DNA of 61,774 bases from Acidimicrobiia bacterium (GCA_046537875.1 JBKHJZ010000003.1:1-61774); one strand, 5' to 3'; numbered from the stretch's first letter, positions 10,742 to 26,992 are shown. The notes: generated by a model from the letters alone, not told the origin. Made by a program: numbers and translations.

Positions 10742-10810
10742 GATTGACCCGCAGGTCAGCCCACACATCAGCCCGACGGCCCCGCGCCGGCACACCGAGG
10801 GGGAGCATCC

Positions 10811-11959
10811 ATGGAGACCCGAGCCGCCATCCTCTGGGAGCCCAACACCGAGTGGAGCGTCGAGGACATCGAGCTCGACGCACCGAAGGCGGGCGAGGTC
10901 AAGGTCCAGCTCGCCGCCTCGGGCCTGTGCCACTCCGACGAGCACCTCCTCACCGGCGACATGGTGCTCGACCCCGAGATGGCCGCCATGCTGGGCGTGC
11001 AGCAGTTCCCGGTGATCGGCGGCCACGAGGGCGCGGGCACGGTCGTCGAGGCGGGACCGGGGGTCTCGACGCTGAAGGAGGGCGACCCGGTGTCGCTCGG
11101 CTTCATCCCCTCGTGCGGCCGGTGCCCGTCGTGCGCCCGCGGCTGGCAGCACCTGTGCGATCTGGGCGCGCTGCTCCTCGCCGGGCGCCAGGTGTCCGAC
11201 ATGACCGCCCGCCACCACGCCAAGGACGGGCGTGACCTCGGGCTCATGTGCTGCCTCGGCACGTTCTCGCCGGTCACGGTGGTGAACGAGGCGAGCTGCA
11301 TCAAGCTCGACGACGACATCCCGCTCGACCGGGCGGCGCTGGTCGGGTGCGGGGTGACCACCGGGTGGGGCGCGGCCACCAACGCGGCCGACGTGCAGCC
11401 CGGCGAGACGGTCGTGGTCATCGGCCTCGGCGGTGTGGGCATGAACGCGCTCCAGGGCGCGTCGATGGCCGGCGCCCGCTACGTCGTGGGCGTCGACCCG
11501 GTGGAGTGGAAGCGCGAGCAGGCGCCCACCTTCGGCGCCACGCACACCGCGCCCAGCATCGAGGAGGCGACCGCTCTCGTGGCCGACCTCACGTGGGGCG
11601 CGAACGCCGACAAGGCGATCCTCACCACCGGCGTCGCGGAGGGCAGCCTCATCGCCCCGATGCTGGGCCTCGTCGCCAAGGGTGGCCGGGCCGTGGTGAC
11701 GGCGGTCGCCCCCGTCAGCCAGATGGACGTGCAGCTCAACCTGTTCGAGCTGACGCTGCAGCGCAAGGAGCTGGTGGGCTGCATCTTCGGCAACGCCAAC
11801 CCGCGCCGCGACATCCCCCGGCTGCTGCGCCTCTACAAGGAGGGCAAGCTCAAGCTCGACGAGCTCGTCACCAGGAACTACTCGCTCGACGAGGTCAACC
11901 AGGGCTACCAGGACATGCGCGACGGCAGGAACATCCGTGGCGTGATCGACTACGCCTGA
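10811..11959 (+). CDS. Zinc-type alcohol dehydrogenase of the NDMA-dependent (nicotinoprotein) kind typically linked to mycofactocin
   Basis: METRAAILWEPNTEWSVEDIELDAPKAGEVKVQLAASGLCHSDEHLLTG... and structural-Zn cysteines CGRCPSCARGWQHLC. It lies directly upstream of mftA. Confidence 0.85.
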   Translation: METRAAILWEPNTEWSVEDIELDAPKAGEVKVQLAASGLCHSDEHLLTGDMVLDPEMAAMLGVQQFPVIGGHEGAGTVVEAGPGVSTLKEGDPVSLGFIPSCGRCPSCARGWQHLCDLGALLLAGRQVSDMTARHHAKDGRDLGLMCCLGTFSPVTVVNEASCIKLDDDIPLDRAALVGCGVTTGWGAATNAADVQPGETVVVIGLGGVGMNALQGASMAGARYVVGVDPVEWKREQAPTFGATHTAPSIEEATALVADLTWGANADKAILTTGVAEGSLIAPMLGLVAKGGRAVVTAVAPVSQMDVQLNLFELTLQRKELVGCIFGNANPRRDIPRLLRLYKEGKLKLDELVTRNYSLDEVNQGYQDMRDGRNIRGVIDYA

Positions 11960-11982
11960 TCGCTCGTCCGAAAGGCATCGCC

Positions 11983-12153
11983 GTGGCACTCACCAGCGAA
12001 CCGACGCACCAGCACGACACGCGGTCCGAGTCCGACGCGCCCGAGAGGCCCGAGGCGGCCGGGCTGCAGGAGTCGCACCACGAGGAGCCGCTCGCCGAGG
12101 ACGAGGTGCTCCTCGAGGAGATCTCGATCGACGGGATGTGCGGGGTCTACTGA
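11983..12153 (+). CDS. mftA: Mycofactocin precursor peptide MftA
   Basis: The reading frame ends ...AEDEVLLEEISIDGMCGVY*, the canonical MftA C-terminus (IDGMCGVY). It lies immediately upstream of mftB and mftC. The GTG at 11983 follows GAAAGG. The true start is uncertain, because no in-frame ATG exists except in the core. Confidence 0.85.
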   Translation: MALTSEPTHQHDTRSESDAPERPEAAGLQESHHEEPLAEDEVLLEEISIDGMCGVY

Positions 12154-12428
12154 GCCCGGTGCCCCTCGACGCCCCGGCCCCCCTCGAGCTGCACCCCGAC
12201 GTGGCGCTGCGCCCCGAGCCGTTCGGGGCGCTGGCGTACCACTACGGCACCCGCCGGCTGACGTTCCTGCGCTCGCCCGACCTGGTGCGGCTGGTCGAGG
12301 ATCTCGCCCGGCACCCCTCGGTCGACGACGCCCTGGCCGCGTCGCCGATCGAGGAGCGCCGCTGGCCGGCGTTCCGCACCGCCGTCGCCTCGCTGGCCGA
12401 GTCCGGCTTCCTTCGGGCCCGTGACTAG
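12138..12428 (+). CDS. mftB: Mycofactocin biosynthesis chaperone MftB (RRE-type peptide-binding protein)
   Basis: ...LHPDVALRPEPFGALAYHYGTRRLTFLRSPDLVRLVEDL... matches the MftB pattern, and it sits between mftA and mftC. Start is GTG 12138 (overlaps the mftA end) or GTG 12159. Confidence 0.85.
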   Translation: MRGLLSPVPLDAPAPLELHPDVALRPEPFGALAYHYGTRRLTFLRSPDLVRLVEDLARHPSVDDALAASPIEERRWPAFRTAVASLAESGFLRARD

Positions 12429-13551
12429 CCCGCTGGTCGACGAGCTGAAGCGGGGGCTCGACGCCCCCATCTGCCTGACGTGGGAGCTCACGTACGGGTG
12501 CAACCTGGCGTGCGTCCACTGCCTGTCGTCGTCGGGACGGCGCGATCCCCGTGAGCTGTCGACCGCCGAGGCCATGGCGGTGATCGACGAGCTCCACGCC
12601 ATGCAGGTCTTCTACGTCAACATCGGGGGCGGCGAGCCCACCATCCGGGGCGACTTCTACGACTTGGTCGACCACGCGGTGGCCCGGGGCGTGGGAGTGA
12701 AGTTCTCGACCAACGGCTCGACCATCGACGCGACCAGGGCGCAGCGGCTGGTGGGCAGCGACTACGTCGACGTCCAGGTGTCGATCGACGGGGCGACCGC
12801 GGCCACCAACGACCCGATCCGGGGTGAGGGCTCCTACGCGGCGGCGCGGCGGGCCATGGACCACCTGGCCGCGGCCGGGTTCGGCCGGTTCAAGATCAGC
12901 GTGGTGGTCACCCGCACCAACGTGGGCGAGCTCGACGCGTTCGAGGCGCTCGCCGCGCACTACGGGGCCCAGCTGCGCCTGACCCGCCTGCGCCCCTCCG
13001 GTCGCGGGGCCGACGTCTGGCACGACCTCCACCTGCTCCCCGACCAGCAGGTCCACCTCCACCGCTGGCTGGTCGACCGGCCGGACGTGCTCACCGGCGA
13101 CTCGTTCTTCCACCTCAACGCGTTGGGCGAGTCGCTGCCCGGCCTCAACCTGTGCGGCGCCGGGCGGGTGGTCTGCCTGATCGACCCGGTCGGCGACGTC
13201 TACGCCTGCCCGTTCGTGCTCCACCCCGAGTTCCGGGCCGGCAGCGTGCGGGATCCGGGCGGGTTCACCCACGTGTGGCGGAGCAGCGACCTGTTCCGCT
13301 CGCTGCGCGAGCCGCAGTCGGCCGGCGCCTGCGCGAGCTGCGGCAGCTACGACGCCTGCCAGGGCGGGTGCATGGCCGCCAAGTTCTTCACCGGGCTGCC
13401 GCTGGACGCCCCCGATCCCGAGTGCGTGCACGGCCACGGCGAGCGCGCGCTGGCCGGGGTCGCGGCCGGGTCCGCGGTGCCCCGGGGACCCGATCACGGC
13501 GCCCGCCGGGGGGCGGTTCCGGTGCGGCTCGGCCGCACCCGGCGCAATTGA
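12421..13551 (+). CDS. mftC: Mycofactocin radical SAM maturase MftC (SPASM domain)
   Basis: CLTWELTYGCNLACVHCLSS (CxxxCxxC), GGEPTIRGDF, and the C-terminal Cys-rich SPASM region CGAGRVVCLIDPVGDVYACPF...CASCGSYDACQGGC. Confidence 0.95.
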   Translation: MTSPLVDELKRGLDAPICLTWELTYGCNLACVHCLSSSGRRDPRELSTAEAMAVIDELHAMQVFYVNIGGGEPTIRGDFYDLVDHAVARGVGVKFSTNGSTIDATRAQRLVGSDYVDVQVSIDGATAATNDPIRGEGSYAAARRAMDHLAAAGFGRFKISVVVTRTNVGELDAFEALAAHYGAQLRLTRLRPSGRGADVWHDLHLLPDQQVHLHRWLVDRPDVLTGDSFFHLNALGESLPGLNLCGAGRVVCLIDPVGDVYACPFVLHPEFRAGSVRDPGGFTHVWRSSDLFRSLREPQSAGACASCGSYDACQGGCMAAKFFTGLPLDAPDPECVHGHGERALAGVAAGSAVPRGPDHGARRGAVPVRLGRTRRN

Positions 13552-13588
13552 CCGCGTCCCCCGCCGGACTGCGACACTCATCCACCTG

Positions 13589-15541
13589 ATGCGCCTGCTC
13601 GAGCCCCTCGCGTGGGGCCCGCTGACCGCCCGCAACCGCGTGGTGTTCGGCCCTCACGAGACCAACCTGGCTCGCCGGCGCGCGCTGTCGGACCGCCACG
13701 TGGCCTACTACCGGCGCCGGGCCTCGGGCGGCGCCGGGGTGATCGTGGTCGAGGAGGCCTCGGTGCACCCCAGCGACTGGCCCTACGAGCGCTGCCCGTT
13801 GGCCGCCGACTGCGCCGACGGCTGGTCGGCCATCGCCCGCGCCTGCCACGACGAGGGCGCGCTGGTGCTGGCGGCGCTGGGGCACGCCGGCGGCCAGGGG
13901 TCGAGCGCGTACAGCCAGGCGCCGCTGCTGGCGCCGTCGCGGGTGCCGGAGGTGACGACCCGAGAGGTCCCCAAGTGGATGGAGCCGGCGGACATCGCCG
14001 CGGTGGTCGACGGGTTCGCCGGGGCGGCCCGGGCCGCGGTCGCCGCGGGATGCGACGGGGTGGAGGTCAACGCCGGCCAGCACAGCCTGGTGCGCCAGTT
14101 TCTCTCGGGGCTCACCAACCACCGAGACGACGCCTGGGGGACCGACCGCCTGGCGTTCGCCCGCGAGCTGCTGGTCGCCGTGCGGGATGCGGTCGGCCCG
14201 GACGCGGTGGTGGGGTTGCGATTGTCGTGCGACGAGCTCGCGCCCTGGGCCGGGCTGACGCCCGAGGCGGCCACCGAGGTCGCGGCCGCGCTCGCCCCGC
14301 TGGTCGATCACGTCACGGTCGTGCGGGGATCGATCTACTCGACCGCGGCCACCCGCCCGGACGGCCACGTGGCGCCGGGCGTCAACCTCGACCTCGCCCG
14401 CCGGGTCAGGGGCGCGCTCCCCGCCGGCGTGGTGGTGGTGGTCCAGGGCTCGATCGTCGACGTCGGCATGGCCACCGAGGCGGTCGAGGGCGGCGCCTGC
14501 GACGCGGTCGAGATGACCCGCGCCCAGCTCGCGGACGCCCGGCTGGTCGCCAAGCTGGCCGCCGGCGAGGCCGACCGCATCCGCCCGTGCATCCTCTGCA
14601 ACCAGACCTGCCAGGTGCGGGACGTCCGGAACCCCGTCATCTCGTGCGTGGTCGACCCCCGCACGGGCCACGAGACCACCGATGCCGACGCCGACGACCC
14701 GGCCCCGGCACCGCACCCGGTCGATGTCCTCGTGGTCGGTGGCGGGCCGGCCGGGCTGGAGGCGGCCCGGGTGGCCGCGGGGCGGGGCCACCGGGTCACG
14801 CTCGCCGAGCGCGGCGACCGGCTGGGGGGCATGGTGCCGGTGGCCGCGGCCGGCGGGGGCCGGGAGCGGCTCGCCGCGGCGACCGACTGGCTGGCGGCCG
14901 AGTGCGAGCGGCTGGGGGTGAAGGTCGAGACCGGCCGGGAGATCACGGCGGCCGACCTCGCCGGTGTGGGAGAGACCGGCCGGGTGGTGCTCTGCACCGG
15001 CTCGCTGCCCGGGCGGCGCAGCTACGAGGTGGACGAGGGGGCCACGGCGGTCACGGCCGCCGAGGCGCTCACTCCCGGGTCGTCCCTCCCGTCCGACCCG
15101 TCCGGCGGGGCCGTGCTCGTCTGGGACCCGATCGGCGGACCGATCGGCATCTCGGTGGCCGAGCGCCTGCGCGCCGAGGGGCGCGACGTCGTCCTCGCCA
15201 CCCCCGACCTGGTCCCGGGCAACGAGCTGTCGCGCACCGGTGACCTGGCGCCCGCCAACGCCCGGATGCAGGCCGCGGGCGTGGTGCTCGCCCGCCGGAC
15301 GCTGCTGCGCACCGTGCGGGCTGGCGAGGTGGAGCTCGAGGACCGCTTCACCGGCGAGCGCCGCACGCTGGCCGTGGCGGCGGTGGTCGACGCCGGTCAC
15401 CGCCTGCCCGACGACCGGCTGTGGCGGGAGACCGGCGAGCGGCTGCCCGTCGCCGGTGACGCAGTGGCGCCCCGGACCATCCAGGAGGCGGTGCTGGAGG
15501 GCAGGCGCCGGGCCTTCGAGCTGGAGGCGGCCGCCCCGTGA
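13589..15541 (+). CDS. FadH/OYE-family flavin/iron-sulfur oxidoreductase (mycofactocin-system type 1)
   Basis: OYE-like N-terminus (LTARNRVVFGPHETNL...AYYRRRASGGAGVIVVEEASV). FadH-type 4Fe-4S motif IRPCILCNQTCQVRDVRNPVISC. Then a Rossmann motif VLVVGGGPAGLEAARVAAGRGHRVTLAER. Confidence 0.85.
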   Translation: MRLLEPLAWGPLTARNRVVFGPHETNLARRRALSDRHVAYYRRRASGGAGVIVVEEASVHPSDWPYERCPLAADCADGWSAIARACHDEGALVLAALGHAGGQGSSAYSQAPLLAPSRVPEVTTREVPKWMEPADIAAVVDGFAGAARAAVAAGCDGVEVNAGQHSLVRQFLSGLTNHRDDAWGTDRLAFARELLVAVRDAVGPDAVVGLRLSCDELAPWAGLTPEAATEVAAALAPLVDHVTVVRGSIYSTAATRPDGHVAPGVNLDLARRVRGALPAGVVVVVQGSIVDVGMATEAVEGGACDAVEMTRAQLADARLVAKLAAGEADRIRPCILCNQTCQVRDVRNPVISCVVDPRTGHETTDADADDPAPAPHPVDVLVVGGGPAGLEAARVAAGRGHRVTLAERGDRLGGMVPVAAAGGGRERLAAATDWLAAECERLGVKVETGREITAADLAGVGETGRVVLCTGSLPGRRSYEVDEGATAVTAAEALTPGSSLPSDPSGGAVLVWDPIGGPIGISVAERLRAEGRDVVLATPDLVPGNELSRTGDLAPANARMQAAGVVLARRTLLRTVRAGEVELEDRFTGERRTLAVAAVVDAGHRLPDDRLWRETGERLPVAGDAVAPRTIQEAVLEGRRRAFELEAAAP

Positions 15542-17538
15542 GGTCGACCCGCTACCGGCACCTGTTCACGCCGCTGCCGATCGGCCCGGTGGTGGTGCCG
15601 AACCGCATCGTGTTCTCGGCGCACCTCACCAACTACGCCGAGGACGGGCTGCCCACCGACCAGCACGCCGCCTACTACGCGGCGCGGGCCGCGGGCGGGG
15701 CGGGGCTGATCGTCACCGAGGAGCACTCGACCCACCCCACCGACTGGCCGTACGAGAAGCTGATCCACGGCTACCACCCCGAGGTGGTGCCCGCCTACCG
15801 CCGGATCACCGATGCCGTCCACCGGCACGGCACCCCGGTCTTCGCCCAGATCAACCACAACGGCGGGCAGGCCAGCTCGATGTACACGCGGCTGCCCGTG
15901 TGGGCGCCGTCGCCGGTGGCCGACCCCCTGTTCCGCGAGGTCGCCCACGGGGTCAGCCAGCGGGAGATCGCCGAGATCGTCGCCGGCTACGCGCTCGTGG
16001 CCGGGCACTGCAAGGCGGGGGGATTCGACGGGATCGAGCTCCAGTGCTCGCACAGCTCGATCGTGCGCGGGTTCCTCTCGCCGGCGGCGAACCACCGGAC
16101 CGACGGCTACGGCGGGTCGCTGGAGAACCGCGCCCGGCTGCTCCGCGAGATCGTCGAGGCCGTGCGGGAGGCGATCGGGCGCGACCTCGCCCTCGGGGTG
16201 CGGGTGTGCGGTGACGAGCTGATCGAGGGGGGCACGACCATCGACGAGGCCGTCGAGGTCGCCCGGATGGTCGAGGCCCAGGGCCTCACCGACTACGTGA
16301 ACACCTCGATCGGCGTGGCGACCGCCTCGCTGTTCATGATCGAGGCGTCGATGCAGGTGCCGCCCGGCTACGCGCTGTTCGTCCCGTCCGCGATCCGCAA
16401 GGCCGTCGACCTCCCGGTGGTGGGCGTGGGCCGGTTCAAGGACCCGCTCCAGGCCGACCGGGCACTGGAGGAGGGGCACTGCGACCTGGTCGGGGTGGTG
16501 CGGGGGCAGATCGCCGACGCCGACTTCGCCGCCAAGGCCCGCGCCGGGCGGGCCGAGGACATCCGGCTGTGCCTCTCGTGCAACCAGGAGTGCGTCGGCC
16601 GCATGGGCCTGAACCGCTGGCTCGGGTGCATCGAGAACCCGCTGACCGGGCGGGAGGCCGAGCGCGGGATCCCGGCGGGGCACCCGGACCGACCTCCTGC
16701 CGGTCGGGGCGATGCCGACCGGCCCCGGAGGGTGGTGGTGATCGGCGCCGGCCCCGCCGGGCTCGAAGCCGCCCGCGCCGCCGCCGAGCGCGGGCACCGG
16801 GTGACCGTGCTGGAGCGGGCCGCCGAGGCGGGGGGCCAGGTGCGGCTGGCCGCGAGCGTGGCGAGCCGAGCCGAGCTCGGCGACCTGGTGCGCAACCAGG
16901 TGCGGGCGGTCGGCCGGCTGGGGGTGGAGGTGCGCTACGGGGTGGAGGCGGACGCCGCGACCGTGCTGGCCGAGCGGCCCGACGTGGTGATCGTGGCGAC
17001 CGGCTCGTCGCCCGCCCGCCCCTGGTGGGCGCCGGGCGACGAGGCCCGCATCGTGGACGTCGTCGACGTGCTGGAGGGACGCGCCGAGCCGGCCGGTCGC
17101 GTGGTGGTGGTCGACGAGCTGGGCTTCCACCAGGCCACGTCGGTGGCCGAGCTGCTGGCCGACCGGGGCTGTGACGTCACGGTCGTGACGCCCGGGATGG
17201 TCGTGGGTCAGGACCTCGGGATCACGCTCGACATGGAGCACTGGCAGGTGCGGGCGGCGGCCAAGGGGATCGCCCAGGAGGTCGAGCTGGTGCCGATGGG
17301 CTGGGACGGCAACGGTGAGACCAACCGGCTGGTCGTGCAGCACCATCCGACCGGCGCCGAGCGCCGGTTCGACGCCGACTGGGTGGTGCTGGCGGTGCCC
17401 CCGTCGCCGGTGGACGGGCTGTACCACGAGTTGTCCGGCCGCGACGGTCTGGTCGTGCACCGGGCCGGGGACTGCGTCGCCCCCCGCCGCGCCCACGCGG
17501 CGGTGATCGAGGGCGAGCGGATCGGGGCGTCGCTGTGA
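15538..17538 (+). CDS. FadH/OYE-family flavin/iron-sulfur oxidoreductase (mycofactocin-system type 2)
   Basis: VPNRIVFSAHLTNY..., HRTDGYGGSLENRARLLREIVEAVREA, 4Fe-4S motif IRLCLSCNQECVGRMGLNRWLGC, and VVVIGAGPAGLEAARAAAERGHRVTVLER. GTGA overlap with the previous gene. Confidence 0.85.
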   Translation: MRSTRYRHLFTPLPIGPVVVPNRIVFSAHLTNYAEDGLPTDQHAAYYAARAAGGAGLIVTEEHSTHPTDWPYEKLIHGYHPEVVPAYRRITDAVHRHGTPVFAQINHNGGQASSMYTRLPVWAPSPVADPLFREVAHGVSQREIAEIVAGYALVAGHCKAGGFDGIELQCSHSSIVRGFLSPAANHRTDGYGGSLENRARLLREIVEAVREAIGRDLALGVRVCGDELIEGGTTIDEAVEVARMVEAQGLTDYVNTSIGVATASLFMIEASMQVPPGYALFVPSAIRKAVDLPVVGVGRFKDPLQADRALEEGHCDLVGVVRGQIADADFAAKARAGRAEDIRLCLSCNQECVGRMGLNRWLGCIENPLTGREAERGIPAGHPDRPPAGRGDADRPRRVVVIGAGPAGLEAARAAAERGHRVTVLERAAEAGGQVRLAASVASRAELGDLVRNQVRAVGRLGVEVRYGVEADAATVLAERPDVVIVATGSSPARPWWAPGDEARIVDVVDVLEGRAEPAGRVVVVDELGFHQATSVAELLADRGCDVTVVTPGMVVGQDLGITLDMEHWQVRAAAKGIAQEVELVPMGWDGNGETNRLVVQHHPTGAERRFDADWVVLAVPPSPVDGLYHELSGRDGLVVHRAGDCVAPRRAHAAVIEGERIGASL

Positions 17539-18500: not shown

Positions 18501-19794
18501 GTGGGACGTGATCGTGGTGGGTGCCGGCCCGGCCGGCGCCAGCGCGGCGCTCGTGCTGGCACGCGCCGGCCGGCGGGTCGTGCTGGTCGAGCGCGGGCCC
18601 TTTCCCGGGTCGAAGAACATGTACGGCGGGGTGGTCTACGGGCGGGTGCTCGACGACCTGGTCCCCCGCTGGTGGGAGCACGTGCCGTTCCAGCGCTGGG
18701 TCACCCGGCGGCAGACCATGGCGCTCACCGGCACCCGGGCGCTGACCGTGGACTACCGGACCGACGCCTGGGGCCGCGAGCCCTACAACGGCTGCACCAC
18801 GTTCCGGGCCGACTTCGACGCCTGGTTGGCGGGGCTCGCCGAGGACGCCGGTGCCACGCTGCTGTGCGCCACCACGGTGACCGGGCTGGTGCGCGACGGC
18901 GGGTCCGGCCGGGTCACCGGGGTCACGACCGATCGGGGCGACCTGGCCGCGCCGCTCGTGATCGCCTGCGACGGCGCGAACTCGTTCCTGGCCAAGGAGG
19001 CCGGCCTGCACCCCCACGGCGACGACCCCGCCCACATGACGCTCGGCGTCAAGGAGGTGCTGGGATTCGACCGCCGCACGATCGACGAGCGCTTCGGCGT
19101 GCGGGGCGACGAGGGCGTGGACATCGAGATCCTCGGCTGCACCGGGGAGGTGCCGGGCGGGGGCTTCGTGTACACCAACGCCGAGTCGGTGAGCGTCGGT
19201 GTCGTGCTCCAGCTCTCCGCGCTGGGCGCCTCGGGAACCCGGCCCGAGGACTTCATCGCCGGCCTCGAGGCCCACCCCGCGGTGGCGCCGCTGGTCGAGG
19301 GCGGGGACGTGACCGAGTACTCCGCCCACCTGATCCCCGAGGGCGGCTACGACACCATGCCGGAGATCGTGGGCGACGGGCTGCTCGTCGCCGGCGACGC
19401 GGCCGGCCTCTGCCTGGCCGCGGGCATCTGGCTCGAGGGGGTGAACTTCGCGATCGGCTCCGGGGCCGCCGCCGGCGAGACGGCGCACGAGGCGCTGGCC
19501 GGCGCCGGCACCAGCGCCAGGGGGCTCGCCGGCTACCGGCGGCGGCTCGAGGCGAGCTTCGTGCTCCAGGACCACCGCAAGCTGCGCCGGGCGCCCGGCT
19601 TCGTGCTGTCCGACCGGGTGCAGCGCCACTACCCGCAGCTGGCGTGCGACCTGGTCGAGCAGCTGTTCACTGTGGAGAACCCCCGCCGCAAGAAGGGCGG
19701 GATGGCCGCGGCCCGCGCCGCGCTGCGCCGCAGCGACCTCCGGGTGCGCGACCTCGCCCGGGACGCCTGGACCGCCTGGAGGACGTTCGGGTGA
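18487..19794 (+). CDS. fixC: FixC-like FAD-dependent oxidoreductase (ETF:quinone oxidoreductase family)
   Basis: WDVIVVGAGPAGASAALVLARAGRRVVLVERGPFPGSKNMYGG... is the classic FixC/YdiS N-terminus, followed by ...EGVNFAIGSGAAAGE.... Confidence 0.85.
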   Translation: MAADEWDVIVVGAGPAGASAALVLARAGRRVVLVERGPFPGSKNMYGGVVYGRVLDDLVPRWWEHVPFQRWVTRRQTMALTGTRALTVDYRTDAWGREPYNGCTTFRADFDAWLAGLAEDAGATLLCATTVTGLVRDGGSGRVTGVTTDRGDLAAPLVIACDGANSFLAKEAGLHPHGDDPAHMTLGVKEVLGFDRRTIDERFGVRGDEGVDIEILGCTGEVPGGGFVYTNAESVSVGVVLQLSALGASGTRPEDFIAGLEAHPAVAPLVEGGDVTEYSAHLIPEGGYDTMPEIVGDGLLVAGDAAGLCLAAGIWLEGVNFAIGSGAAAGETAHEALAGAGTSARGLAGYRRRLEASFVLQDHRKLRRAPGFVLSDRVQRHYPQLACDLVEQLFTVENPRRKKGGMAAARAALRRSDLRVRDLARDAWTAWRTFG

Positions 19795-20108
19795 GCGGGC
19801 GAGCGAGCGGGCCGGGGCCCCGTGCGAGCGGGATCGACTTCCAGGACCGCATGGCCACCGTCGAGTTCCGGGTGGGGGAGCGCCCGCACATCACGGTCGA
19901 CGGCGACACGTGCCGGGGGTGCACCACCCGGGCGTGCGTCACCGCCTGCCCCGCCGACCTGTTCGTCCCCACCACGGACGGCGGCATCCTGTTCAACTAC
20001 GAGCAGTGCTTCGAGTGCGGCACCTGCTACATGGTCTGCAACCGCGAGGGCGCCATCACGTGGACCTACCCCGACGGCGGCCACGGCGTCGTGTTCCGGC
20101 GGTCGTGA
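19791..20108 (+). CDS. fixX: FixX-like ferredoxin-like protein
   Basis: ...ERPHITVDGDTCRGCTTRACVTACPADLFVPTTDGGILFNYEQCFECGTCYMVCNREGAITWTYPDGGHGVVFR. The GTG at 19791 overlaps the fixC stop. ATG 19851 is an alternative start. Confidence 0.8.
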   Translation: MSGRASGPGPRASGIDFQDRMATVEFRVGERPHITVDGDTCRGCTTRACVTACPADLFVPTTDGGILFNYEQCFECGTCYMVCNREGAITWTYPDGGHGVVFRRS

Positions 20109-20112
20109 GGCG

Positions 20113-20931
20113 ATGATCGGCGTCTGCCTGAAGTGGGTGGAGCGGCGGCCCGAGGTCGACCCGCTCACGGGCGAGGTGGCCACCGACCCGCGGACATCGG
20201 GCGCGAGCCCCGCCGACCAGGCGGCCCTCGAGTGGGCGTTGCGCCTGGCGGCCGCGTGGGACGACGAGGTGACGGCGCTGACCGCCGGACCGCCCGCGGC
20301 GGAGCCGGTGCTGCGGGAGGCGCTCGCCGCGGGTGCCGTCCGGGCCGTGCGCGTCGACCTGGCGGACGGCGCCTCCAGCGAGGCCACGGCGGCCGGGCTG
20401 GCCGCCGCGCTCGACGCCGCGGGGAGCGTGGCCGTCGTGTGCGGCGACTGGTCGCTCGACCGGGGGAGCGGTGCCGTGCCCGCCTACCTGGCCGCCCACC
20501 TGGGTGCCGCCCAGGCGCTCGGCCTGGTGGACCTCGACCCGGGTCCCCCCGGGCGCGTGCGGGCCGGGCGCCGGCTCGACGGCGGGCGCCGCGAGCGGCT
20601 GGCGGTGGCGGCGCCGATGGTGCTGTCGGTCGAGGGCCGGCTGCGCCTGCGGCGTGCCGGCCTGGACGGGATCCTGTCGGCCCGGGACGCGCCGATCGAG
20701 GTGCTCCCCGGGCCCCCGGCACATGCCCGGACGCCCCTCCGCACCGGCCCCTACCGACCCCGGGCGCGCGTCCTGCCGCCCCCGGGCGGGTCGTCGGCCC
20801 GCGAGCGCATCCTCGCCCTCACGGGTGCGCTGGCCGACCGGACGCCACCGGAGCAGGTCGTCCTCGACCCGGCACCGGCCGCCGACCGGCTCCTGGCCCA
20901 GCTGCGGGCCTGGGGCTACCTGGACGAGTGA
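20113..20931 (+). CDS. etfB: Electron transfer flavoprotein beta subunit (FixA-like)
   Basis: MIGVCLKWVERRPEVDPLTGEV...SPADQAALEWALRLAAAW...VTALTAGPPAAEPVLREALAAGA...VVCGDWSLDRGSGAVPAYLAAHLG follows the ETF-beta pattern. Confidence 0.8.
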   Translation: MIGVCLKWVERRPEVDPLTGEVATDPRTSGASPADQAALEWALRLAAAWDDEVTALTAGPPAAEPVLREALAAGAVRAVRVDLADGASSEATAAGLAAALDAAGSVAVVCGDWSLDRGSGAVPAYLAAHLGAAQALGLVDLDPGPPGRVRAGRRLDGGRRERLAVAAPMVLSVEGRLRLRRAGLDGILSARDAPIEVLPGPPAHARTPLRTGPYRPRARVLPPPGGSSARERILALTGALADRTPPEQVVLDPAPAADRLLAQLRAWGYLDE

Positions 20932-21617
20932 CCGCGAGCGACCCACCCGCCCGGCTGGCGGACGCCACCTGGACCGACGTCGCCGCGCGCCCACGCCTGC
21001 TGGCCGTGCCGCTGGGCTCGACCGAGCAGCACGGCCCCCACCTGCCGCTCGGAACCGACACGCTGGTGGCCTGCGCCCTGGCCGACCGGTTGGCCGCCGC
21101 CCGCCCCGACGTGGTGGTGGCGCCGGCCCTGCCGTACGGGTCGAGCGGCGAGCACGCGGGCTTTCCCGGGACGCTGTCGATCGGGCAGGAGGCCCTCGCC
21201 TCGGTGATCGTGGAGCTGGTCCGGTCGGCCGACGGGTTCCGGGGCGTGGTGCTGATCTCGGGTCACGGCGGCAACGCCGAGCCGCTGCGCCGCGCCGCCG
21301 CCACGCTGGCGTCCGAGGGGCGCCGGGTCCTGCCCTGGTCGCCGAGCGTCCCGGGTGGCGACGCGCACGCCGGGCGGACCGAGACGTCGCTGCTGCTCGC
21401 GCTCGCGCCCGCTCTGGTTCGCACGTCGGCCATCGAACCCGGGGACACCCGCCCGCTGCCGGAGCTCCTGCCGGAGCTGCGCGCGGGCGGTGTGGCCGCC
21501 GTGTCGGCCAACGGCGTCCTCGGCGACCCGCGCGGGGCGGACGCGGGCGAGGGTGAGCGCCTGCTGGATGCGCTCGCCGACGACCTGGTGCGGGCCGTGA
21601 CACGCTGGGTGTCGTGA
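20928..21617 (+). CDS. mftE: Mycofactocin biosynthesis peptidyl-dipeptidase MftE (creatininase fold)
   Basis: LLAVPLGSTEQHGPHLPLGTDT...APALPYGSSGEHAGFPGTLSI...LISGHGGN...HAGRTETS are creatinine-amidohydrolase-family metal motifs. GTGA overlap with etfB. Confidence 0.85.
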   Translation: MTASDPPARLADATWTDVAARPRLLAVPLGSTEQHGPHLPLGTDTLVACALADRLAAARPDVVVAPALPYGSSGEHAGFPGTLSIGQEALASVIVELVRSADGFRGVVLISGHGGNAEPLRRAAATLASEGRRVLPWSPSVPGGDAHAGRTETSLLLALAPALVRTSAIEPGDTRPLPELLPELRAGGVAAVSANGVLGDPRGADAGEGERLLDALADDLVRAVTRWVS

Positions 21618-22444
21618 CCACCGAGGCGACACCGCCCTCGCCCGACATCGCGACCGCACCGGTCGCGGTGATCACCGGCGCGGCGCGGGGCATCGGCGCC
21701 GCGGTCGCCCGGGGCCTGGCGGCCCAGGGGTGGCGGCTGGTGCTGGTCGATAAGTGCGCCGACGACCCGGCGCTGGGCTACCCGCTCGCCACGCGCGCCG
21801 ACCTGGCGGCCGTGGCGGCCGGGTGTGGCGGGCACGATGTCGCGGTCGACGTGGTGGCGGACGTGCGCGACCAGGCGGCGGTGACCGACGCGGTGGCGGT
21901 CGCCACCGAGCGCTTCGGGGGACTGGACGCCGCGGTCGCGGCCGCGGGCGGCCTCGCGGGCGGCGACCCGGCCTGGTCGACCGGCGACGACACCTGGGCG
22001 GCGATGATCGGCGTCAACCTGGAGGGAACGTGGCGGCTGGCCCGGGCCGCCGCGCCGGTGCTGCTCGCCCGCCCGGCGCCCCGGCACGGCCGGATCGTGG
22101 CCGTCGCGTCGGCCGGGGGCCTGGTGGGTCTGCCGTTGCTCTCCGCCTACAGCGCCGCCAAGCACGGGGTGGTCGGCCTCGTGCGGAGCCTGGCCGCCGA
22201 GCTGGGACCGCACGGCGTGACGGCCAACGCGGTGGCGCCCGGGTCGACGACCACCGACATGCTGCACGCGAGCGCCGGGGTGTACGACCTGGGGAGCCCG
22301 GCCGAGCTCCGGGTCCACCACCTGCTCGACCGCCTGCTCGAGCCGGACGAGGTGGCGGCGCTCGTCGTGTGGCTCTGCGGCCGGGCGAGCAGCGGGGTGA
22401 CCGGGGCCGTGCTCCCCGTCGACGCGGGCATGACCGCCCGGTGA
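21614..22444 (+). CDS. Short-chain dehydrogenase/reductase, mycofactocin-coupled type
   Basis: VAVITGAARGIGAAVARGLAAQGWRLVLVD (TGxxxGIG) and catalytic SAYSAAKHGVVGLVRSLA (YxxxK). Embedded between mftE and mftF with 4-nt overlaps on both sides. Confidence 0.85.
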   Translation: MTTEATPPSPDIATAPVAVITGAARGIGAAVARGLAAQGWRLVLVDKCADDPALGYPLATRADLAAVAAGCGGHDVAVDVVADVRDQAAVTDAVAVATERFGGLDAAVAAAGGLAGGDPAWSTGDDTWAAMIGVNLEGTWRLARAAAPVLLARPAPRHGRIVAVASAGGLVGLPLLSAYSAAKHGVVGLVRSLAAELGPHGVTANAVAPGSTTTDMLHASAGVYDLGSPAELRVHHLLDRLLEPDEVAALVVWLCGRASSGVTGAVLPVDAGMTAR

Positions 22445-23901
22445 GCGCCGCCTGTGCGCCGGCCGGATCGCCGGCGCGGCCCCTGCCGCCCGGCATGGCG
22501 CTGGCGCTCGACGCCGCGACCCGCCGCATCGACGGTGGGACGGTGCTGGTGGGCGGCGCCCCGCTGCGGCTGTTGCGGCTGAGCGCCGCGGGGGCGCGGC
22601 TGGTCGACCGGCTCGAGGCGGGGGAGCGGGTGCCCGACAGCGCGGCCGCTCAGCGCCTCGCCCGCCGGCTGCTCGACACTGGGATGGCCCATCCCCGGCC
22701 GGCCGGCACGGCGCGGCCGTACGGGCCGGGCGATGTCGCCGTGGTGGTCCCGACCCACGACCGGCCCGGGGGCCTGGCCCGCACGCTGGAGCGCCTGGGT
22801 TCGGTGGGCGAGGTGGTGGTGGTCGACGACGGCTCGGCCGATGCCGGGGCCACCGCGGCCGTCGCCGCCGCCGCGGGGGCACGCCTGGTGCGCCACGGCC
22901 GGTCGCGTGGCCCCGCCGCCGCCCGCAACGCAGGGTGGCGGGCCGCGGACGCGCCGGTGATCGCGTTCGTCGACGCCGATGTCGAGCCCTCCCGGGGCTG
23001 GTTGACGCCGCTCCTCGGGCACCTGGCCGACGAGGCCGTCGCCGCCGCCGCACCCCGCGTGGCCCCGCTGGTGCCGCCGGGAACCCCGGCCTGGCTCGCC
23101 GCGTACGAGCGGGTCCGGTCGCCGCTCGACCTGGGGCCGGTCGAGGCGCCGGTCCGCCCGGGCGGTCGCGTGCCCTACGTGCCGACGGCGACCCTGGTGG
23201 TCCGGCGGTCGGCGCTCGAGGACCTGGGCGGCTTCGACGAGGCGATGGCGTACGGCGAGGACGTCGACCTGGTGTGGCGGCTCGCGGCGCGCGGGGCGAC
23301 GGTGCGGTACGAGCCCGGGGCCGTGGTGCGGCACCCGGTGCGGCCGACGTTGGGTGCGTGGCTGCGCCAGCGCTACGACTACGGCTCGTCGGCGCCGCCG
23401 CTCGCGGCCCGCCACGCCGGGGCCGTGGCCCCGCTGACCGTCTCCGGGTGGAGCGCGGCCGCGTGGGCGCTGGTGCTGGCGGGCGCACCGGTCGGCGGGC
23501 TCGCGTTGGGCGCCGCCACCACCGCGGCGCTGGCCCCCAAGCTGCGGAGCCTGCGCCACCCGGTCCGGGAGGCGATCCGGCTGGCCGGGCTGGGCAACTT
23601 CGTCGCCGGGCGCCAGGTGGCCGACGCGCTCCGCCGGGCCTGGTTCCCCTTGGCGGTCGCGCTGGCTGGGAACCACCGGTCGCGGCCGGCGCTGGTGGCG
23701 GTGCTCGTCGTGCCGCCGCTGCTCGAGCGGGCCGAGCGGAGGCCGGCGCTCGCGCCGGGTCGCTGGGTGGCGCTGCGGCTCGCCGACGACCTGGCCTACG
23801 GCACCGGGGTGTGGGCCCGCTCGCTCGCGGATCGCACCACGGCGGCGCTCCGGCCGGCGTTCGCCGGCAGGTTCCCGCCGCCGGAGGGTGGTGCGTCGTG
23901 A
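22441..23901 (+). CDS. mftF: Mycofactocin glycosyltransferase MftF (GT2-like, with C-terminal membrane region)
   Basis: VAVVVPTHDRPGGLARTLERL...VVVVDDGSAD...ARNAGWRAADAPVIAFVDADV...YGEDVDLVWRL (GT2 DxD/ED motifs), followed by hydrophobic segments. The GTG at 22441 overlaps the SDR stop. Confidence 0.85.
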   Translation: MSAACAPAGSPARPLPPGMALALDAATRRIDGGTVLVGGAPLRLLRLSAAGARLVDRLEAGERVPDSAAAQRLARRLLDTGMAHPRPAGTARPYGPGDVAVVVPTHDRPGGLARTLERLGSVGEVVVVDDGSADAGATAAVAAAAGARLVRHGRSRGPAAARNAGWRAADAPVIAFVDADVEPSRGWLTPLLGHLADEAVAAAAPRVAPLVPPGTPAWLAAYERVRSPLDLGPVEAPVRPGGRVPYVPTATLVVRRSALEDLGGFDEAMAYGEDVDLVWRLAARGATVRYEPGAVVRHPVRPTLGAWLRQRYDYGSSAPPLAARHAGAVAPLTVSGWSAAAWALVLAGAPVGGLALGAATTAALAPKLRSLRHPVREAIRLAGLGNFVAGRQVADALRRAWFPLAVALAGNHRSRPALVAVLVVPPLLERAERRPALAPGRWVALRLADDLAYGTGVWARSLADRTTAALRPAFAGRFPPPEGGAS

Positions 23902-24950
23902 GCGAAACCTCCGCGGCCGCCGACCCCGCGGGATGGGCGCGCCGCCTCGGCGTGTCCCGTGAGGCCGTCGACCTGCTCCTGGCGTCGGACGCCATCGATC
24001 TCCACGTGGAGTCGTTCGTGTGGACCCGGGTCCTCCGCTACGACCTGCGGGGCTGGCACCGCCGCGCGCTCCCCGGGCACCGCTGGCTGGGTCAGGTCGA
24101 CATCCCCCGGGCCCGCGCCGCCGGCCTGGCGGGCGCGGTGATGAGCATCGCCACCAACCCGTTCCGGTCACGCGCGGGGCGGGTGGCCACGCTGGGGCGC
24201 AACCTGGCCCGCCTGCGGCGGGACCTGGGCGGCGACGGGGTCGCGGTGGTCGCCGACGCCGCCGGCTACGCCCGGGCGCGGGCGGCCGGCGACCTGGCGT
24301 GCTTCCTGGCGCTGCAGGGCGGCAACGCGCTCTCGGCCGACGACGTGGCCACCGCACCCCTCGACGACGTCTCGCGCATCACGCTGGTGCACCTCACCCG
24401 CTCCGCGCTGGGCGCCCCGAGCGCGCCCGGTGGCCGGGGTGGTGGGCTGACGCCGGAGGGGCGCCGTTTCGTCGCGGCGCTGCGGGACCGGTCGATCATC
24501 CTCGACCTGGCCCATGCGGCGCCGGCCACGTTCTGGCAGGCCCTCGACGTCCACGGCGACGGCCCGGCCATCGTCTCGCACACGGGCGTGCGGGCGTGCC
24601 GGCGGTCGTGGCGCAACCTCGACGACGACCAGATCCGGGCGATCGCGGCGCGGGGCGGCGTGGTCGGCGTCATGTTCCACCGCGGGTTCCTGGCCCGGCC
24701 GGCGCGACGGGCGACCGCGTCCGACGTGGTGCGCCACGTCGACCACGTGATCCGGGTGGGCGGGGAGGACGCGGCGGCGCTCGGTAGCGACTTCGACGGG
24801 ATGATCGTGCCACCCCGCGACCTGCCGACCGTGCTGGAGCTGCCCCGGGTCGTCCAGCGCATGCTCGACCGGGGCTACGCGCCCGAGCGGGTGCGCAAGG
24901 TGCTGGGCGGCAACTACCTGCGGGTGGTGGCCGCCGTCCGTCCCGGTTAG
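23898..24950 (+). CDS. Membrane-dipeptidase (peptidase M19 / renal dipeptidase) family protein, possibly with atypical metal ligands
   Basis: AIDLHVESF..., ITLVHLTRSAL, ILDLAHAA, PAIVSHTGVRACRRSWRNLDDDQIRAIAARGGVVGV, HVDHVIRVGGEDAAALGSDFDG and VLGGNYLRV follow the M19 motif order. The GTG at 23898 overlaps the mftF stop. Confidence 0.8.
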   Translation: MSETSAAADPAGWARRLGVSREAVDLLLASDAIDLHVESFVWTRVLRYDLRGWHRRALPGHRWLGQVDIPRARAAGLAGAVMSIATNPFRSRAGRVATLGRNLARLRRDLGGDGVAVVADAAGYARARAAGDLACFLALQGGNALSADDVATAPLDDVSRITLVHLTRSALGAPSAPGGRGGGLTPEGRRFVAALRDRSIILDLAHAAPATFWQALDVHGDGPAIVSHTGVRACRRSWRNLDDDQIRAIAARGGVVGVMFHRGFLARPARRATASDVVRHVDHVIRVGGEDAAALGSDFDGMIVPPRDLPTVLELPRVVQRMLDRGYAPERVRKVLGGNYLRVVAAVRPG

Positions 24951-26942: not shown

Positions 26943-26992
26943 GAGACCCTGTGTGTGTCGACGAGCCGATTCTTGCCGAGGCGACGACCAGC

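What the first reader, a model, noticed from the sequence alone, without database searches (positions are those of the whole stretch)
10811..24950. Fourteen-gene mycofactocin operon lacking mftD, mftG and a classical mftR in cis
Seen in sequence: a precursor ending ...EEISIDGMCGVY (11983-12153) is followed by MftB, the radical-SAM/SPASM enzyme MftC, creatininase-fold MftE and glycosyltransferase MftF. An NDMA-type ADH lies upstream and an SDR lies inside the cluster. Nearly every junction is a 4-14 nt start/stop overlap (12421, 15538, 17535, 18487, 19791, 20928, 21614, 22441, 23898), so this is one translationally coupled unit. Established knowledge: in the characterised pathway, MftE releases the AHDP dipeptide lactam. 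MftD (an FMN alpha-hydroxy-acid-oxidase-like enzyme) then oxidatively deaminates it to premycofactocin. MftF glycosylates the product, MftG (a GMC flavoenzyme) re-oxidises the cofactor, and MftR (TetR) regulates the cluster. None of the ORFs in this 62-kb window resembles an FMN alpha-hydroxy-acid oxidase or a GMC oxidoreductase. The only TetR-like domain is in the MerR-TetR fusion 2 kb downstream. Inference: either mftD and mftG are encoded elsewhere, or this lineage completes maturation and recycling with the non-canonical genes inserted here (see the next two findings).
Basis: partly seen in the sequence, partly recalled or inferred. Interest (0 to 1): 0.7.

Follow-up and report, generated by a model that had tools for sequence, protein, structure and literature searches.

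The report
ETF-type mycofactocin operon, mftD unlinked
This is an intact 14-gene operon for the peptide-derived redox cofactor mycofactocin, of an already catalogued variant that carries two iron-sulfur flavoenzymes and an electron-transfer-flavoprotein chain. The "missing" mftD is most likely encoded elsewhere in the genome, as it is in relatives, while the flavoprotein chain is a testable candidate for the job MftG does in mycobacteria.

Summary
Window 10811-24950 (+) holds 14 tightly packed genes: NDMA-ADH, MftA, MftB, MftC, FadH/OYE-1, FadH/OYE-2, EtfA, FixC-like, FixX-like, EtfB, MftE, SDR, MftF and an M19 dipeptidase. Nine junctions overlap by 4-14 nt. The 62-kb window has no MftD, MftG or MftR.

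The architecture is not new. All four "non-canonical" families have curated NCBIfam mycofactocin models, and RefSeq annotates identical clusters. BGCFlow (2024) reported mftD-less Saccharopolyspora clusters carrying the OYE gene. Haft (2011) noted that MftD is not universal.

I found the same gene order in 83 loci: Acidimicrobiia, Pseudonocardiaceae and Streptomyces plasmids. A haloarchaeal plasmid carries the module too. None has MftD or MftG in cis.

Absence in cis is not absence from the genome. Isolates of Amycolatopsis sacchari and Saccharopolyspora flava, both with this cluster type, carry an unlinked mftD-like gene. An Acidimicrobiia isolate has a solitary mftR-mftD pair. MftG, by contrast, is absent from complete genomes of these genera.

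Best reading: a split system, in which the OYE-ETF-FixCX module probably links mycofactocin to the quinone pool. That function is inferred, not shown. The window's own genome could not be tested.

The parts
10811..11959 (+). NDMA-dependent (nicotinoprotein) Zn alcohol dehydrogenase, a presumed mycofactocin-coupled client enzyme
   Evidence: TIGR03989, 590.9 bits vs cut-off 440. Found in 16 of 83 related loci.
11983..12153 (+). MftA precursor peptide, C-terminus IDGMCGVY
   Evidence: TIGR03969, 42.3 bits vs cut-off 25. Translation.
12138..12428 (+). MftB chaperone (RRE)
   Evidence: TIGR03967, 103.4 bits vs 33. The start codon is uncertain (12138 or 12159).
12421..13551 (+). MftC radical SAM/SPASM maturase
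   Evidence: TIGR03962, 613.4 bits vs 265.
13589..15541 (+). Mycofactocin-system FadH/OYE family oxidoreductase 1: FMN TIM barrel, CxxCxxxCx11C motif and one GxGxxG motif. This is the less conserved paralogue.
   Evidence: TIGR03996, 769 bits vs 627.9. Nearest solved structures are FadH 1ps9, 6l6j, NCR 6qkg and histamine dehydrogenase. Motifs.
15538..17538 (+). Mycofactocin-system FadH/OYE family oxidoreductase 2. It is highly conserved. It has the 4Fe-4S motif and the first dinucleotide fold, but no second GxGxxG, so no recognisable NAD(P)H site.
   Evidence: TIGR03997, 965.5 bits vs 793. Solved-structure hits and alignments. Conservation.
17535..18500 (+). Mycofactocin-associated ETF alpha subunit
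   Evidence: NF038209, 381 bits vs 240. Homologues are named this way by NCBI in Acidimicrobiales MAGs.
18487..19794 (+). FixC-like FAD-dependent oxidoreductase, a presumed ETF:quinone oxidoreductase
   Evidence: NF007450 319 bits and NF007542 (FixC) 292 bits, both below the curated cut-offs. Found in 77 of 83 related loci.
19791..20108 (+). FixX-like 4Fe-4S ferredoxin
   Evidence: NF011993, 54 bits, below the cut-off of 166. Found in 71 of 83 related loci.
20113..20931 (+). Mycofactocin-associated ETF beta subunit
   Evidence: TIGR04503, 276.6 bits vs 200.
20928..21617 (+). MftE creatininase-fold peptidase
   Evidence: TIGR03964, 296.5 bits vs 172.
21614..22444 (+). Mycofactocin-coupled SDR (subfamily 2)
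   Evidence: TIGR04504, 339 bits vs 250.
22441..23901 (+). MftF glycosyltransferase
   Evidence: TIGR03965, 449.6 bits vs 280.
23898..24950 (+). M19 (renal-type) dipeptidase, translationally coupled to mftF. This is a lineage-specific addition.
   Evidence: PF01244, 197.8 bits. No NCBIfam hit. No counterpart in about 170 other mft loci.
26951..27784 (+). MerR-TetR fusion regulator. It is not MftR and is not conserved next to other clusters, so it is probably not part of the system.
   Evidence: PF13411 + PF00440. MftR model 39.7 bits vs cut-off 224.9. No orthologue in related loci.

Best explanation
The window carries a complete, intact "ETF-type" mycofactocin operon, the form typical of Acidimicrobiia.

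Shown: MftA, B, C, E and F, two client dehydrogenases (ADH, SDR) and a six-gene redox module (OYE1, OYE2, EtfA, FixC-like, FixX-like, EtfB) form one tightly packed, overlapping unit. The module sits exactly where mftD sits in canonical clusters.

Inferred by analogy with relatives: mftD, probably with a divergent mftR, lies elsewhere in the genome, so AHDP is still deaminated by MftD. On this reading the system is a split cluster, not a new maturation route. mftG is genuinely absent.

Inferred from module composition and distribution: the OYE1/OYE2 iron-sulfur flavoproteins have no recognisable NAD(P)H site. They would exchange electrons with the dedicated EtfAB, and FixC/FixX would pass them to menaquinone. 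This would give the mycofactocin pool, reduced by the ADH and SDR, an outlet to respiration, which is the role MftG plays in mycobacteria.
For: Identity of every gene by curated models; overlaps.

Conservation. Among 83 ETF-centred loci (1.29 Mb), all 21 that contain mftC, etfA and mftE have the order mftC < etfA < mftE on one strand. None of the 83 has MftD or MftG. PGAP-annotated twins exist on Streptomyces plasmids. A haloarchaeal plasmid carries the same module order.

mftD unlinked in relatives.
- A. sacchari isolates: the cluster is on a 25.2-kb contig. An mftD-like gene, 83% nt identical over 598 nt to a TIGR03966-verified MftD, is on a different 38.2-kb contig.
- S. flava isolate: 82% identity over 719 nt, on a separate 6.6-kb contig.
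- A. methanolica: MftD is solitary.
- Acidiferrimicrobium sp. IK (Acidimicrobiia): a solitary mftR-mftD pair scoring 261 and 731 bits.
- S. erythraea, whose genus's mft clusters lack mftD, makes MMFT-2 and MMFT-3 (PMC9679996; PMC11162802).

mftG absent genome-wide in complete genomes of the ETF-type genera (eLife supplement). That paper states that what replaces MftG in about 25% of mftC genomes is an open question.

In 80 MftD-centred metagenome loci, ETF and FixC never occur.

OYE2 lacks a second GxGxxG motif in all lineages examined.
Against: - The window's own genome could not be searched. The MftD-like contig in its source metagenome most likely belongs to a second organism with a canonical mftC-mftD pair.
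- The OYE pair co-occurs with both MftD and MftG, and without ETF, in L100 and L103. The OYE enzymes are therefore not simple stand-ins for either.
- The haloarchaeal cluster has OYE+ETF and no MftD within the 26 kb inspected. This fits a biosynthetic role equally well.
- No biochemical data exist for any module protein.
- The direction of electron flow, and whether the ETF is of the bifurcating type, were not determined.
- FixC and FixX score below the curated FixC/FixX cut-offs.
Confidence: 0.55

Rival explanations
1. This lineage truly lacks MftD. One of the FadH/OYE iron-sulfur flavoproteins performs an oxygen-independent oxidative deamination of AHDP to premycofactocin, handing electrons to EtfAB and FixCX. 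This parallels other ETF-linked amine dehydrogenases of the same superfamily, such as trimethylamine and histamine dehydrogenase.
For: - The module occupies the mftD slot between mftC and mftE in 21 of 21 complete loci.
- MftD is never in cis: 0 of 83 loci.
- The six OYE/ETF-type Streptomyces plasmids have no bona fide MftD on the replicon; the two haloarchaeal plasmids carry an OYE-like gene and no MftD with >=60% identity. The four MftD plasmids have no OYE2 gene of that type (>=60% identity).
- TMADH and histamine dehydrogenases are among the nearest solved relatives.
- From established knowledge: MftD is an O2-using FMN enzyme, and TMADH donates electrons to ETF.
Against: - ETF-type isolates A. 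sacchari and S. flava do carry an mftD-like gene.
- L100 has MftD plus both OYEs in one operon.
- An Acidimicrobiia isolate has MftD.
- OYE2 has Leu where histamine dehydrogenase has the flavin-linking Cys.
- A six-gene electron chain seems oversized for a low-flux biosynthetic step (inference).
Confidence: 0.2
2. The OYE-ETF-FixCX module is neither maturase nor recycler. It could be a mycofactocin-linked catabolic or reductive enzyme system acting on an unknown substrate. Or it could run in reverse or bifurcating mode to reduce mycofactocin from NADH or quinol.
For: - OYE1/2 coexist with MftD and MftG in L100/L103, so they must add a function beyond those two.
- The nearest solved relatives include the substrate reductases FadH and 2-naphthoyl-CoA reductase.
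- The FixABCX systems of diazotrophs are bifurcating (established knowledge).
Against: - OYE2 has Ser where the ene-reductases YqjM and FadH have the proton-donor Tyr.
- These four families are defined by their mycofactocin context (NCBIfam equivalog models).
- No substrate-specific gene such as a CoA ligase or transporter is conserved with them.
Confidence: 0.2
3. The cluster is a decaying or non-functional remnant that lost mftD, mftG and mftR.
For: Only the absence of three canonical genes from the 62-kb window.
Against: - All 14 reading frames are intact with strong codon bias and coupled junctions.
- Every protein scores above its curated cut-off.
- The layout is conserved across classes and domains.
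- Closely related copies (95-99% identical) of the cluster occur in sediment RNA-seq libraries, with contigs bridging gene junctions (weak evidence).
- S. erythraea, from a genus with mftD-less mft clusters, makes the cofactor.
Confidence: 0.03

Closest known systems
Canonical mycofactocin cluster mftR/mftABCDEF(+mftG) of Mycobacterium, Tsukamurella and some Streptomyces
   Same: MftA (IDGMCGVY), MftB, MftC, MftE and MftF orthologues, plus NDMA-type ADH and SDR clients.
   Different: The window has no mftD, mftG or mftR in cis. Six redox genes are inserted between mftC and mftE.
ETF/OYE-type mycofactocin clusters already in databases. Examples: Streptomyces sp. NBC_00564 plasmid NZ_CP107787, Streptomyces sp. 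SAT1 plasmid, the Saccharopolyspora BGCs of BGCFlow (PMC11162802), and Haloterrigena turkmenica pHTUR01.
   Same: Same families and same order: mftABC-OYE1-OYE2-etfA-fixC-fixX-etfB-mftE. No mftD or mftG in cis.
   Different: The window adds an M19 dipeptidase after mftF and an ADH at the head, and has no adjacent MftR. The Pseudonocardiaceae and Streptomyces versions have MftR. The haloarchaeal version has a single OYE.
MftG (GMC flavoenzyme, mycofactocinol dehydrogenase feeding respiration; eLife 2025, PMC11778925)
   Same: Proposed role only: draining electrons from reduced mycofactocin into the respiratory chain. ETF genes and MftG never co-occur in the 163 loci examined.
   Different: No sequence relationship. 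The function of the module is untested. The OYE pair can coexist with MftG.
FixABCX / EtfAB plus ETF:quinone oxidoreductase systems
   Same: The four-gene set of ETF alpha, ETF beta, a FixC-type flavoprotein and a FixX-type ferredoxin.
   Different: FixC and FixX score below the curated cut-offs. The gene order is etfA-fixC-fixX-etfB. Whether the ETF is bifurcating was not determined.
FadH / 2-naphthoyl-CoA reductase / trimethylamine and histamine dehydrogenase superfamily
   Same: An FMN TIM barrel, a CxxCxxxCx11C 4Fe-4S motif and an FAD/ADP-binding fold, across the full length.
   Different: There is no second glycine-rich NAD(P)H motif. Ser replaces the proton-donor Tyr of the ene-reductases. 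Leu or Glu replaces the Cys that binds flavin covalently in histamine dehydrogenase.

Membership tests
Mycofactocin biosynthesis system (Haft 2011; NCBIfam equivalogs) | MftA precursor ending GVY, with MftB and the MftC radical SAM/SPASM enzyme adjacent | tested here: met
   TIGR03969 42.3/25, TIGR03967 103/33, TIGR03962 613/265.
Mycofactocin biosynthesis system (Haft 2011; NCBIfam equivalogs) | MftE peptidase and MftF glycosyltransferase | tested here: met
   TIGR03964 297/172 and TIGR03965 450/280.
Mycofactocin biosynthesis system (Haft 2011; NCBIfam equivalogs) | MftD (TIGR03966) FMN-dependent AHDP deaminase | tested here: not met
   Absent from the 62-kb window by Pfam and tblastn, with a working positive control. 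The rest of the genome is not testable here. Haft 2011 already lists MftD as non-universal.
Mycofactocin biosynthesis system (Haft 2011; NCBIfam equivalogs) | MftR (TIGR03968) and MftG (TIGR03970), the accessory members | tested here: not met
   The best TetR scores 39.7 bits vs cut-off 224.9. There is no GMC domain in the window.
ETF/OYE-type mycofactocin cluster (NCBIfam TIGR03996, TIGR03997, NF038209, TIGR04503) | All four family models above their curated cut-offs | tested here: met
   769/628, 966/793, 381/240 and 277/200.
ETF/OYE-type mycofactocin cluster (NCBIfam TIGR03996, TIGR03997, NF038209, TIGR04503) | Module located between mftC and mftE, in the order OYE1-OYE2-etfA-fixC-fixX-etfB | tested here: met
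   The window matches 21 of 21 complete related loci and the PGAP-annotated plasmids.
FixABCX | FixC and FixX equivalog scores | tested here: not met
   NF007542 292 vs 610 and NF011993 54 vs 166. This is a family-level resemblance only.
FixABCX | Bifurcating ETF (second FAD, NADH site) | not tested
   No reliable sequence test was run.
Trimethylamine/histamine dehydrogenase (ETF-linked amine dehydrogenases) | Cys forming 6-S-cysteinyl-FMN in the N-terminal PHC motif | tested here: not met
   OYE2 has AHL where histamine dehydrogenase 6de6 has PHC. OYE1 has PHE.
Trimethylamine/histamine dehydrogenase (ETF-linked amine dehydrogenases) | Electron transfer to ETF | not testable with these tools
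   Suggested only by the adjacent dedicated etfAB genes and the missing NAD(P)H motif.
FadH / OYE ene-reductases | Proton-donor Tyr after the active-site His, and an NAD(P)H-binding GxGxxG in the C-terminal domain | tested here: not met
   Ser aligns with the Tyr of YqjM and FadH. The FadH alignment stops at its NADPH-domain motif, and the OYE1/2 sequences lack GxGxxG there.

The most novel reading that the evidence does not exclude
The OYE1/OYE2-EtfAB-FixCX module is the long-sought MftG-independent route that re-oxidises mycofactocinol and feeds its electrons into the quinone pool, in the roughly 25% of mycofactocin organisms that lack MftG. It might additionally serve as an oxygen-independent AHDP deaminase where MftD is absent, as may be the case in archaea (anaerobes were not examined here).
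Probability: 0.4. Interest if true: 0.7.

Novelty: new member of a known kind. Interest (0 to 1): 0.4.

Why it matters
Mycofactocin is a recently characterised redox cofactor needed for alcohol metabolism in mycobacteria. The field has stated openly that it does not know how organisms without MftG regenerate it (PMC11778925). No paper in the searched library links mycofactocin with an electron transfer flavoprotein.

This window adds an Acidimicrobiia example of the widespread ETF-type cluster. The survey done here sharpens the question in three ways:
- mftD is usually just unlinked.
- mftG is truly missing.
- ETF/FixCX never co-occurs with MftG in the loci examined.

That turns an annotation curiosity into a concrete hypothesis that can be tested by genetics and biochemistry. 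It also explains why genome-mining rules that require mftD misclassify these clusters.

Tried and rejected
1. Exact-protein look-ups of the window's MftC and ADH found nothing on record.

2. I tried to test mftD in the window's own genome through public runs.
- The source run X1 and runs X2-X5 turned out to be communities, not isolates.
- X1 has an MftD-like 450-bp contig at the same depth as the window contigs (32.7 vs about 30-35).
- In X2 and X5 its close relative sits next to a canonical mftC on 11.2-kb (X2) and 3.0-kb (X5) contigs. That contig has depth 36, against 11 for the window-like strain.
- X1 also holds a second mftC at depth about 34.
- I therefore rejected the depth match as coincidence.

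I could not ask whether Acidiferrimicrobium sp. IK has the ETF-type cluster.

4. I tested whether OYE enzymes in ETF-less clusters keep an NAD(P)H motif while ETF-linked ones lose it. This is not supported: the motif is absent in both.

5. A reconstructed 37-residue peptide of the X1 MftD-like gene matched no fetched locus closely.

6. E. coli-type promoter and terminator scans found nothing. That is uninformative at 75% G+C.

7. tblastn of EtfA against plasmids returned no match although annotated homologues exist there, probably because of low-complexity masking.

8. The sediment "RNA" runs cover the cluster and its flanks evenly at low depth. They give only weak support for transcription.

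Full report
What is there

The window is about 75% G+C. Codon-position G+C shows an unbroken run of + strand genes from 10811 to 24950. Translation and curated family models identify fourteen genes, in this order:
- an NDMA-type nicotinoprotein alcohol dehydrogenase
- MftA (…EEISIDGMCGVY)
- MftB
- MftC
- "mycofactocin system FadH/OYE family oxidoreductase 1" and "…2"
- "mycofactocin-associated ETF alpha subunit"
- a FixC-like flavoprotein
- a FixX-like ferredoxin
- "mycofactocin-associated ETF beta subunit"
- MftE
- a mycofactocin-coupled SDR
- MftF
- a Peptidase_M19 dipeptidase

Seven junctions are GTGA overlaps, one overlap is 8 nt and one is 14 nt. The widest gap inside the unit is 37 nt.

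What is absent

Pfam scans of the other called window genes found no FMN-dependent alpha-hydroxy-acid dehydrogenase domain and no GMC domain. Two genes, 26127-26942 and 27897-28610, were scanned with NCBIfam only.

I wrote out E. coli LldD and BetA from memory as probes. Pfam validated them, at 426 bits on FMN_dh and with both GMC domains. I also took a true MftD from a Mycolicibacterium plasmid as a probe. tblastn of the whole window with these probes gave nothing at E<=0.01. The LldD probe found the control MftD at 1.7e-52.

The only TetR domain is in a MerR-TetR fusion at 26951-27784. It scores 39.7 bits on the MftR model, against a cut-off of 224.9. This fusion is not found beside other clusters.

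Is the layout new?

No, for four reasons.
- The four "inserted" families each have a curated NCBIfam model named for its mycofactocin context.
- RefSeq annotates the same operon on Streptomyces plasmids. In NBC_00564 the order is mftR, mftA, B, C, OYE1, OYE2, etfA, FAD oxidoreductase, 4Fe-4S protein, etfB, mftE. SAT1 is similar.
- BGCFlow (PMC11162802) reported 17 Saccharopolyspora clusters that lack mftD but carry TIGR03997. It also noted that S. erythraea nevertheless makes methylmycofactocins, as shown in PMC9679996.

No paper in the library mentions mycofactocin together with an electron transfer flavoprotein. The function of the module is unaddressed.

How widespread and how constant is it?

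An alignment of EtfA homologues retrieved 80 genome loci. Most are Acidimicrobiia MAGs. The closest EtfA homologue found is 86% identical and comes from an Acidimicrobiales MAG, so the window is from that class. The set also includes Amycolatopsis sacchari, Amycolatopsis sp. GM8, Prauserella cavernicola, Saccharopolyspora flava and Qaidamihabitans albus.

With three further loci this makes 83 ETF-centred loci, 1.29 Mb in total.
- All 21 that contain mftC, etfA and mftE have the module between mftC and mftE on one strand.
- None of the 83 has MftD or MftG.
- Eight, mainly Pseudonocardiaceae-type plus a Streptomyces plasmid, have MftR.
- In 25 loci there is no mftC within 9-10 kb upstream. The system is therefore often split in Ilumatobacteraceae-like genomes.

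Haloterrigena turkmenica pHTUR01 carries one OYE gene followed by EtfA, FixC, FixX and EtfB, next to mftF-C-B2-A and mftE. The module's association with mycofactocin thus crosses domains.

Among twelve MftC-bearing plasmids:
- six Streptomyces plasmids are OYE/ETF-type without MftD;
- two haloarchaeal plasmids have an OYE-like gene and no MftD;
- four are canonical, with MftD and no OYE2 gene of that type (>=60% identity).

One genus shows both forms. Streptomyces sp. NBC_00080 has mftR, mftG and mftABCDEF.

The reverse sample

An MftD alignment retrieved 80 metagenome loci.
- None carries ETF or FixC genes.
- Seven carry MftG.
- Two (L100, L103) carry mftM-R-B-C-D-OYE1-SDR-OYE2-E-F-G. NCBIfam scores there are 1170 (OYE_1), 1001 (OYE_2) and 775 (MftG).

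The OYE pair can therefore coexist with both MftD and MftG. It cannot be a simple replacement for either. ETF/FixCX, by contrast, never appears together with MftG.

Seven loci have a solitary MftD, with more than 3 kb on each side and no mftC. Three that I scored are bona fide (673-723 bits, cut-off 471). One of them belongs to a Pseudonocardia (99% identity). The MftD of Amycolatopsis methanolica is likewise solitary in its complete genome.

Is mftD really missing from ETF-type organisms?

Here absence in cis and absence from the genome part company.

Amycolatopsis sacchari. Three isolate-sized runs hold its ETF-type locus: two hold 99-100% of its words, and the third (X24) holds 60%. I laid their contigs on the verified Pseudonocardia MftD gene.
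- Each run has one contig with three collinear pieces covering 598 nt at 83% identity. In X21 this contig is 38.2 kb.
- The ETF-type cluster lies on a different 25.2-kb contig bounded by repeats.

Saccharopolyspora flava. The isolate run has a 6.6-kb contig aligning over 719 nt at 82% identity, spanning positions 3323-4390 of a gene that runs 3311-4495. No MftD lies within the 20.9-kb cluster locus.

Other FMN_dh paralogues share only 34-39% amino-acid identity with MftD. They could not align at this nucleotide identity. These are therefore mftD orthologues, although I could not retrieve their sequences to score them.

Acidimicrobiia. A second protein search surfaced an MftD from Acidiferrimicrobium sp. 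IK, an isolate of that class. Its context is a solitary, divergently transcribed mftR-mftD pair beside dnaE. The scores are 261 bits (cut-off 225) and 731 bits (cut-off 471). I could not determine whether that strain also has the ETF-type cluster.

The window's own genome

The runs that hold the window are communities.
- The source run has an MftD-like fragment at the same depth as the window contigs.
- In four other runs the close relative of that fragment has about three times the depth of the window-like strain; where its contig is long enough (X2, X5) it is adjacent to a canonical mftC.
- The source run also holds a second mftC at that depth.

I conclude that the fragment belongs to another organism. 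The window's genome remains untested.

MftG

The eLife 2025 study reports that about 25% of mftC genomes lack MftG. It calls the replacement an open question (PMC11778925). Its supplementary table lists the following as MftC-positive and MftG-negative:
- Aquihabitans (two strains)
- Iamia
- Ilumatobacter coccineus
- five Saccharopolyspora
- several Amycolatopsis
- Prauserella marina

These are complete genomes of the genera in which I find the ETF-type cluster. I did not confirm the cluster type in each of those strains.

What the module proteins look like

OYE1 and OYE2 are full-length members of the FadH / 2-naphthoyl-CoA reductase / histamine and trimethylamine dehydrogenase superfamily.

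OYE2 is nearly invariant across lineages.
- It keeps the CxxCxxxCx11C motif and the first GxGxxG motif.
- It has DELGFHQATSVAELLADRG where an NAD(P)H-binding glycine motif would be.
- It has Ser where YqjM and FadH have the proton-donor Tyr.
- It has Leu where histamine dehydrogenase has the flavin-linking Cys.

OYE1 is more variable. In Pseudonocardiaceae it has lost the second cluster cysteine. This suggests a catalytic OYE2 with a partly degenerate partner, but that is inference.

The lack of an NAD(P)H motif is the same in the ETF-less L100 cluster. The motif does not track ETF presence.

Mechanism

Shown:
- the gene identities, their coupling and their conservation;
- in-cis absence of MftD and MftG;
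- unlinked mftD in two ETF-type isolates;
- absence of MftG from related complete genomes.

Inferred:
- MftC and MftE make AHDP as usual.
- An unlinked MftD converts AHDP to premycofactocin.
- MftF glycosylates it.
- The ADH and SDR reduce the cofactor.
- OYE1/2 re-oxidise it and pass electrons through EtfAB to FixC/FixX and on to menaquinone.

The design of a soluble dehydrogenase, a dedicated ETF and an ETF:quinone oxidoreductase is an established one. A dedicated six-gene chain fits a high-flux recycling role better than a trace biosynthetic step.

The main rival is that an OYE enzyme deaminates AHDP without oxygen. It keeps some weight because the module sits in the mftD slot, and because the archaeal cluster shows no MftD nearby.

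Verdict

For mftD, a split arrangement is the most likely explanation. The worthwhile residue is the hypothesis that the ETF chain stands in for MftG. Novelty: a new member of a known kind. The only feature peculiar to this window is the M19 dipeptidase coupled to mftF, which has no counterpart in about 170 other loci.

Noticed in passing
window 23898-24950: An M19 (renal-type) dipeptidase is GTGA-coupled to the end of mftF. It has no counterpart at E<=1e-5 in any of about 170 mycofactocin loci fetched. Its role is unknown; leader-peptide recycling or lactam hydrolysis are possibilities.
   Followed up: partly
window 27926-38260: A hopanoid/isoprenoid gene cluster on the + strand. It has two squalene/phytoene synthase-family genes, an amine-oxidase-type flavoprotein, a polyprenyl synthase, squalene-hopene cyclase, a PNP_UDP+LytB fusion, a radical SAM protein with DUF3463, and DXP synthase.
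   Followed up: no
window 42007-43677 (-): A PQQ-dependent dehydrogenase with a C-terminal cytochrome c domain. This is a second, mycofactocin-independent alcohol/sugar oxidation system in the same window.
   Followed up: no
window 6786-9338 (-) and 5072-6844 (+): An AMP-binding + carrier-protein + acyltransferase_3 fusion protein, and a DUF222/HNH endonuclease of the kind often mobile in actinobacteria.
   Followed up: no
L100:6686-20171 and L103: Metagenome contigs with mftM-mftR-mftB-C-D-OYE1-SDR-OYE2-mftE-F-G. The FadH/OYE pair occurs together with MftD and MftG, but without ETF/FixCX.
   Followed up: yes
L023, L052, L060, L079 (OYE1 genes): In Pseudonocardiaceae the OYE1 paralogue has lost the second cysteine of the CxxCxxxC iron-sulfur motif (CVLSNQKC, CTLTNQRC), while OYE2 is invariant. 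OYE1 may be a degenerate partner subunit.
   Followed up: partly
L170:9178-11173 (Acidiferrimicrobium sp. IK, GCA_025499425.1): A solitary, divergently transcribed mftR-mftD pair next to dnaE in an Acidimicrobiia isolate, with no other mft gene within 10 kb.
   Followed up: partly
L172 (Haloterrigena turkmenica pHTUR01, 85.5-96.1 kb): An archaeal mycofactocin cluster with one OYE gene followed by EtfA-FixC-FixX-EtfB in the same order as the bacterial module, plus four mycofactocin-coupled SDR genes.
   Followed up: partly
L010, L013-L017, L020 and 18 other ETF-centred loci: 25 of 83 loci have more than 9 kb upstream of etfA without mftC. In many Ilumatobacteraceae-like genomes, mftABC is separated from OYE2-ETF-mftE-mftF.
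   Followed up: partly
window 9000-27000 in runs X8, X9, X10 and X12: Sediment libraries labelled RNA-seq contain 95-99% identical copies of the whole cluster at low, even depth. Some contigs bridge gene junctions, for example 20707-21747. The flanks are covered too, so DNA carry-over cannot be excluded.
   Followed up: partly
runs X1-X5: The samples that hold the window also hold a second, more abundant organism with a canonical mftC-mftD pair (an 11.2-kb contig in X2). Both cluster types therefore coexist in one community.
   Followed up: yes
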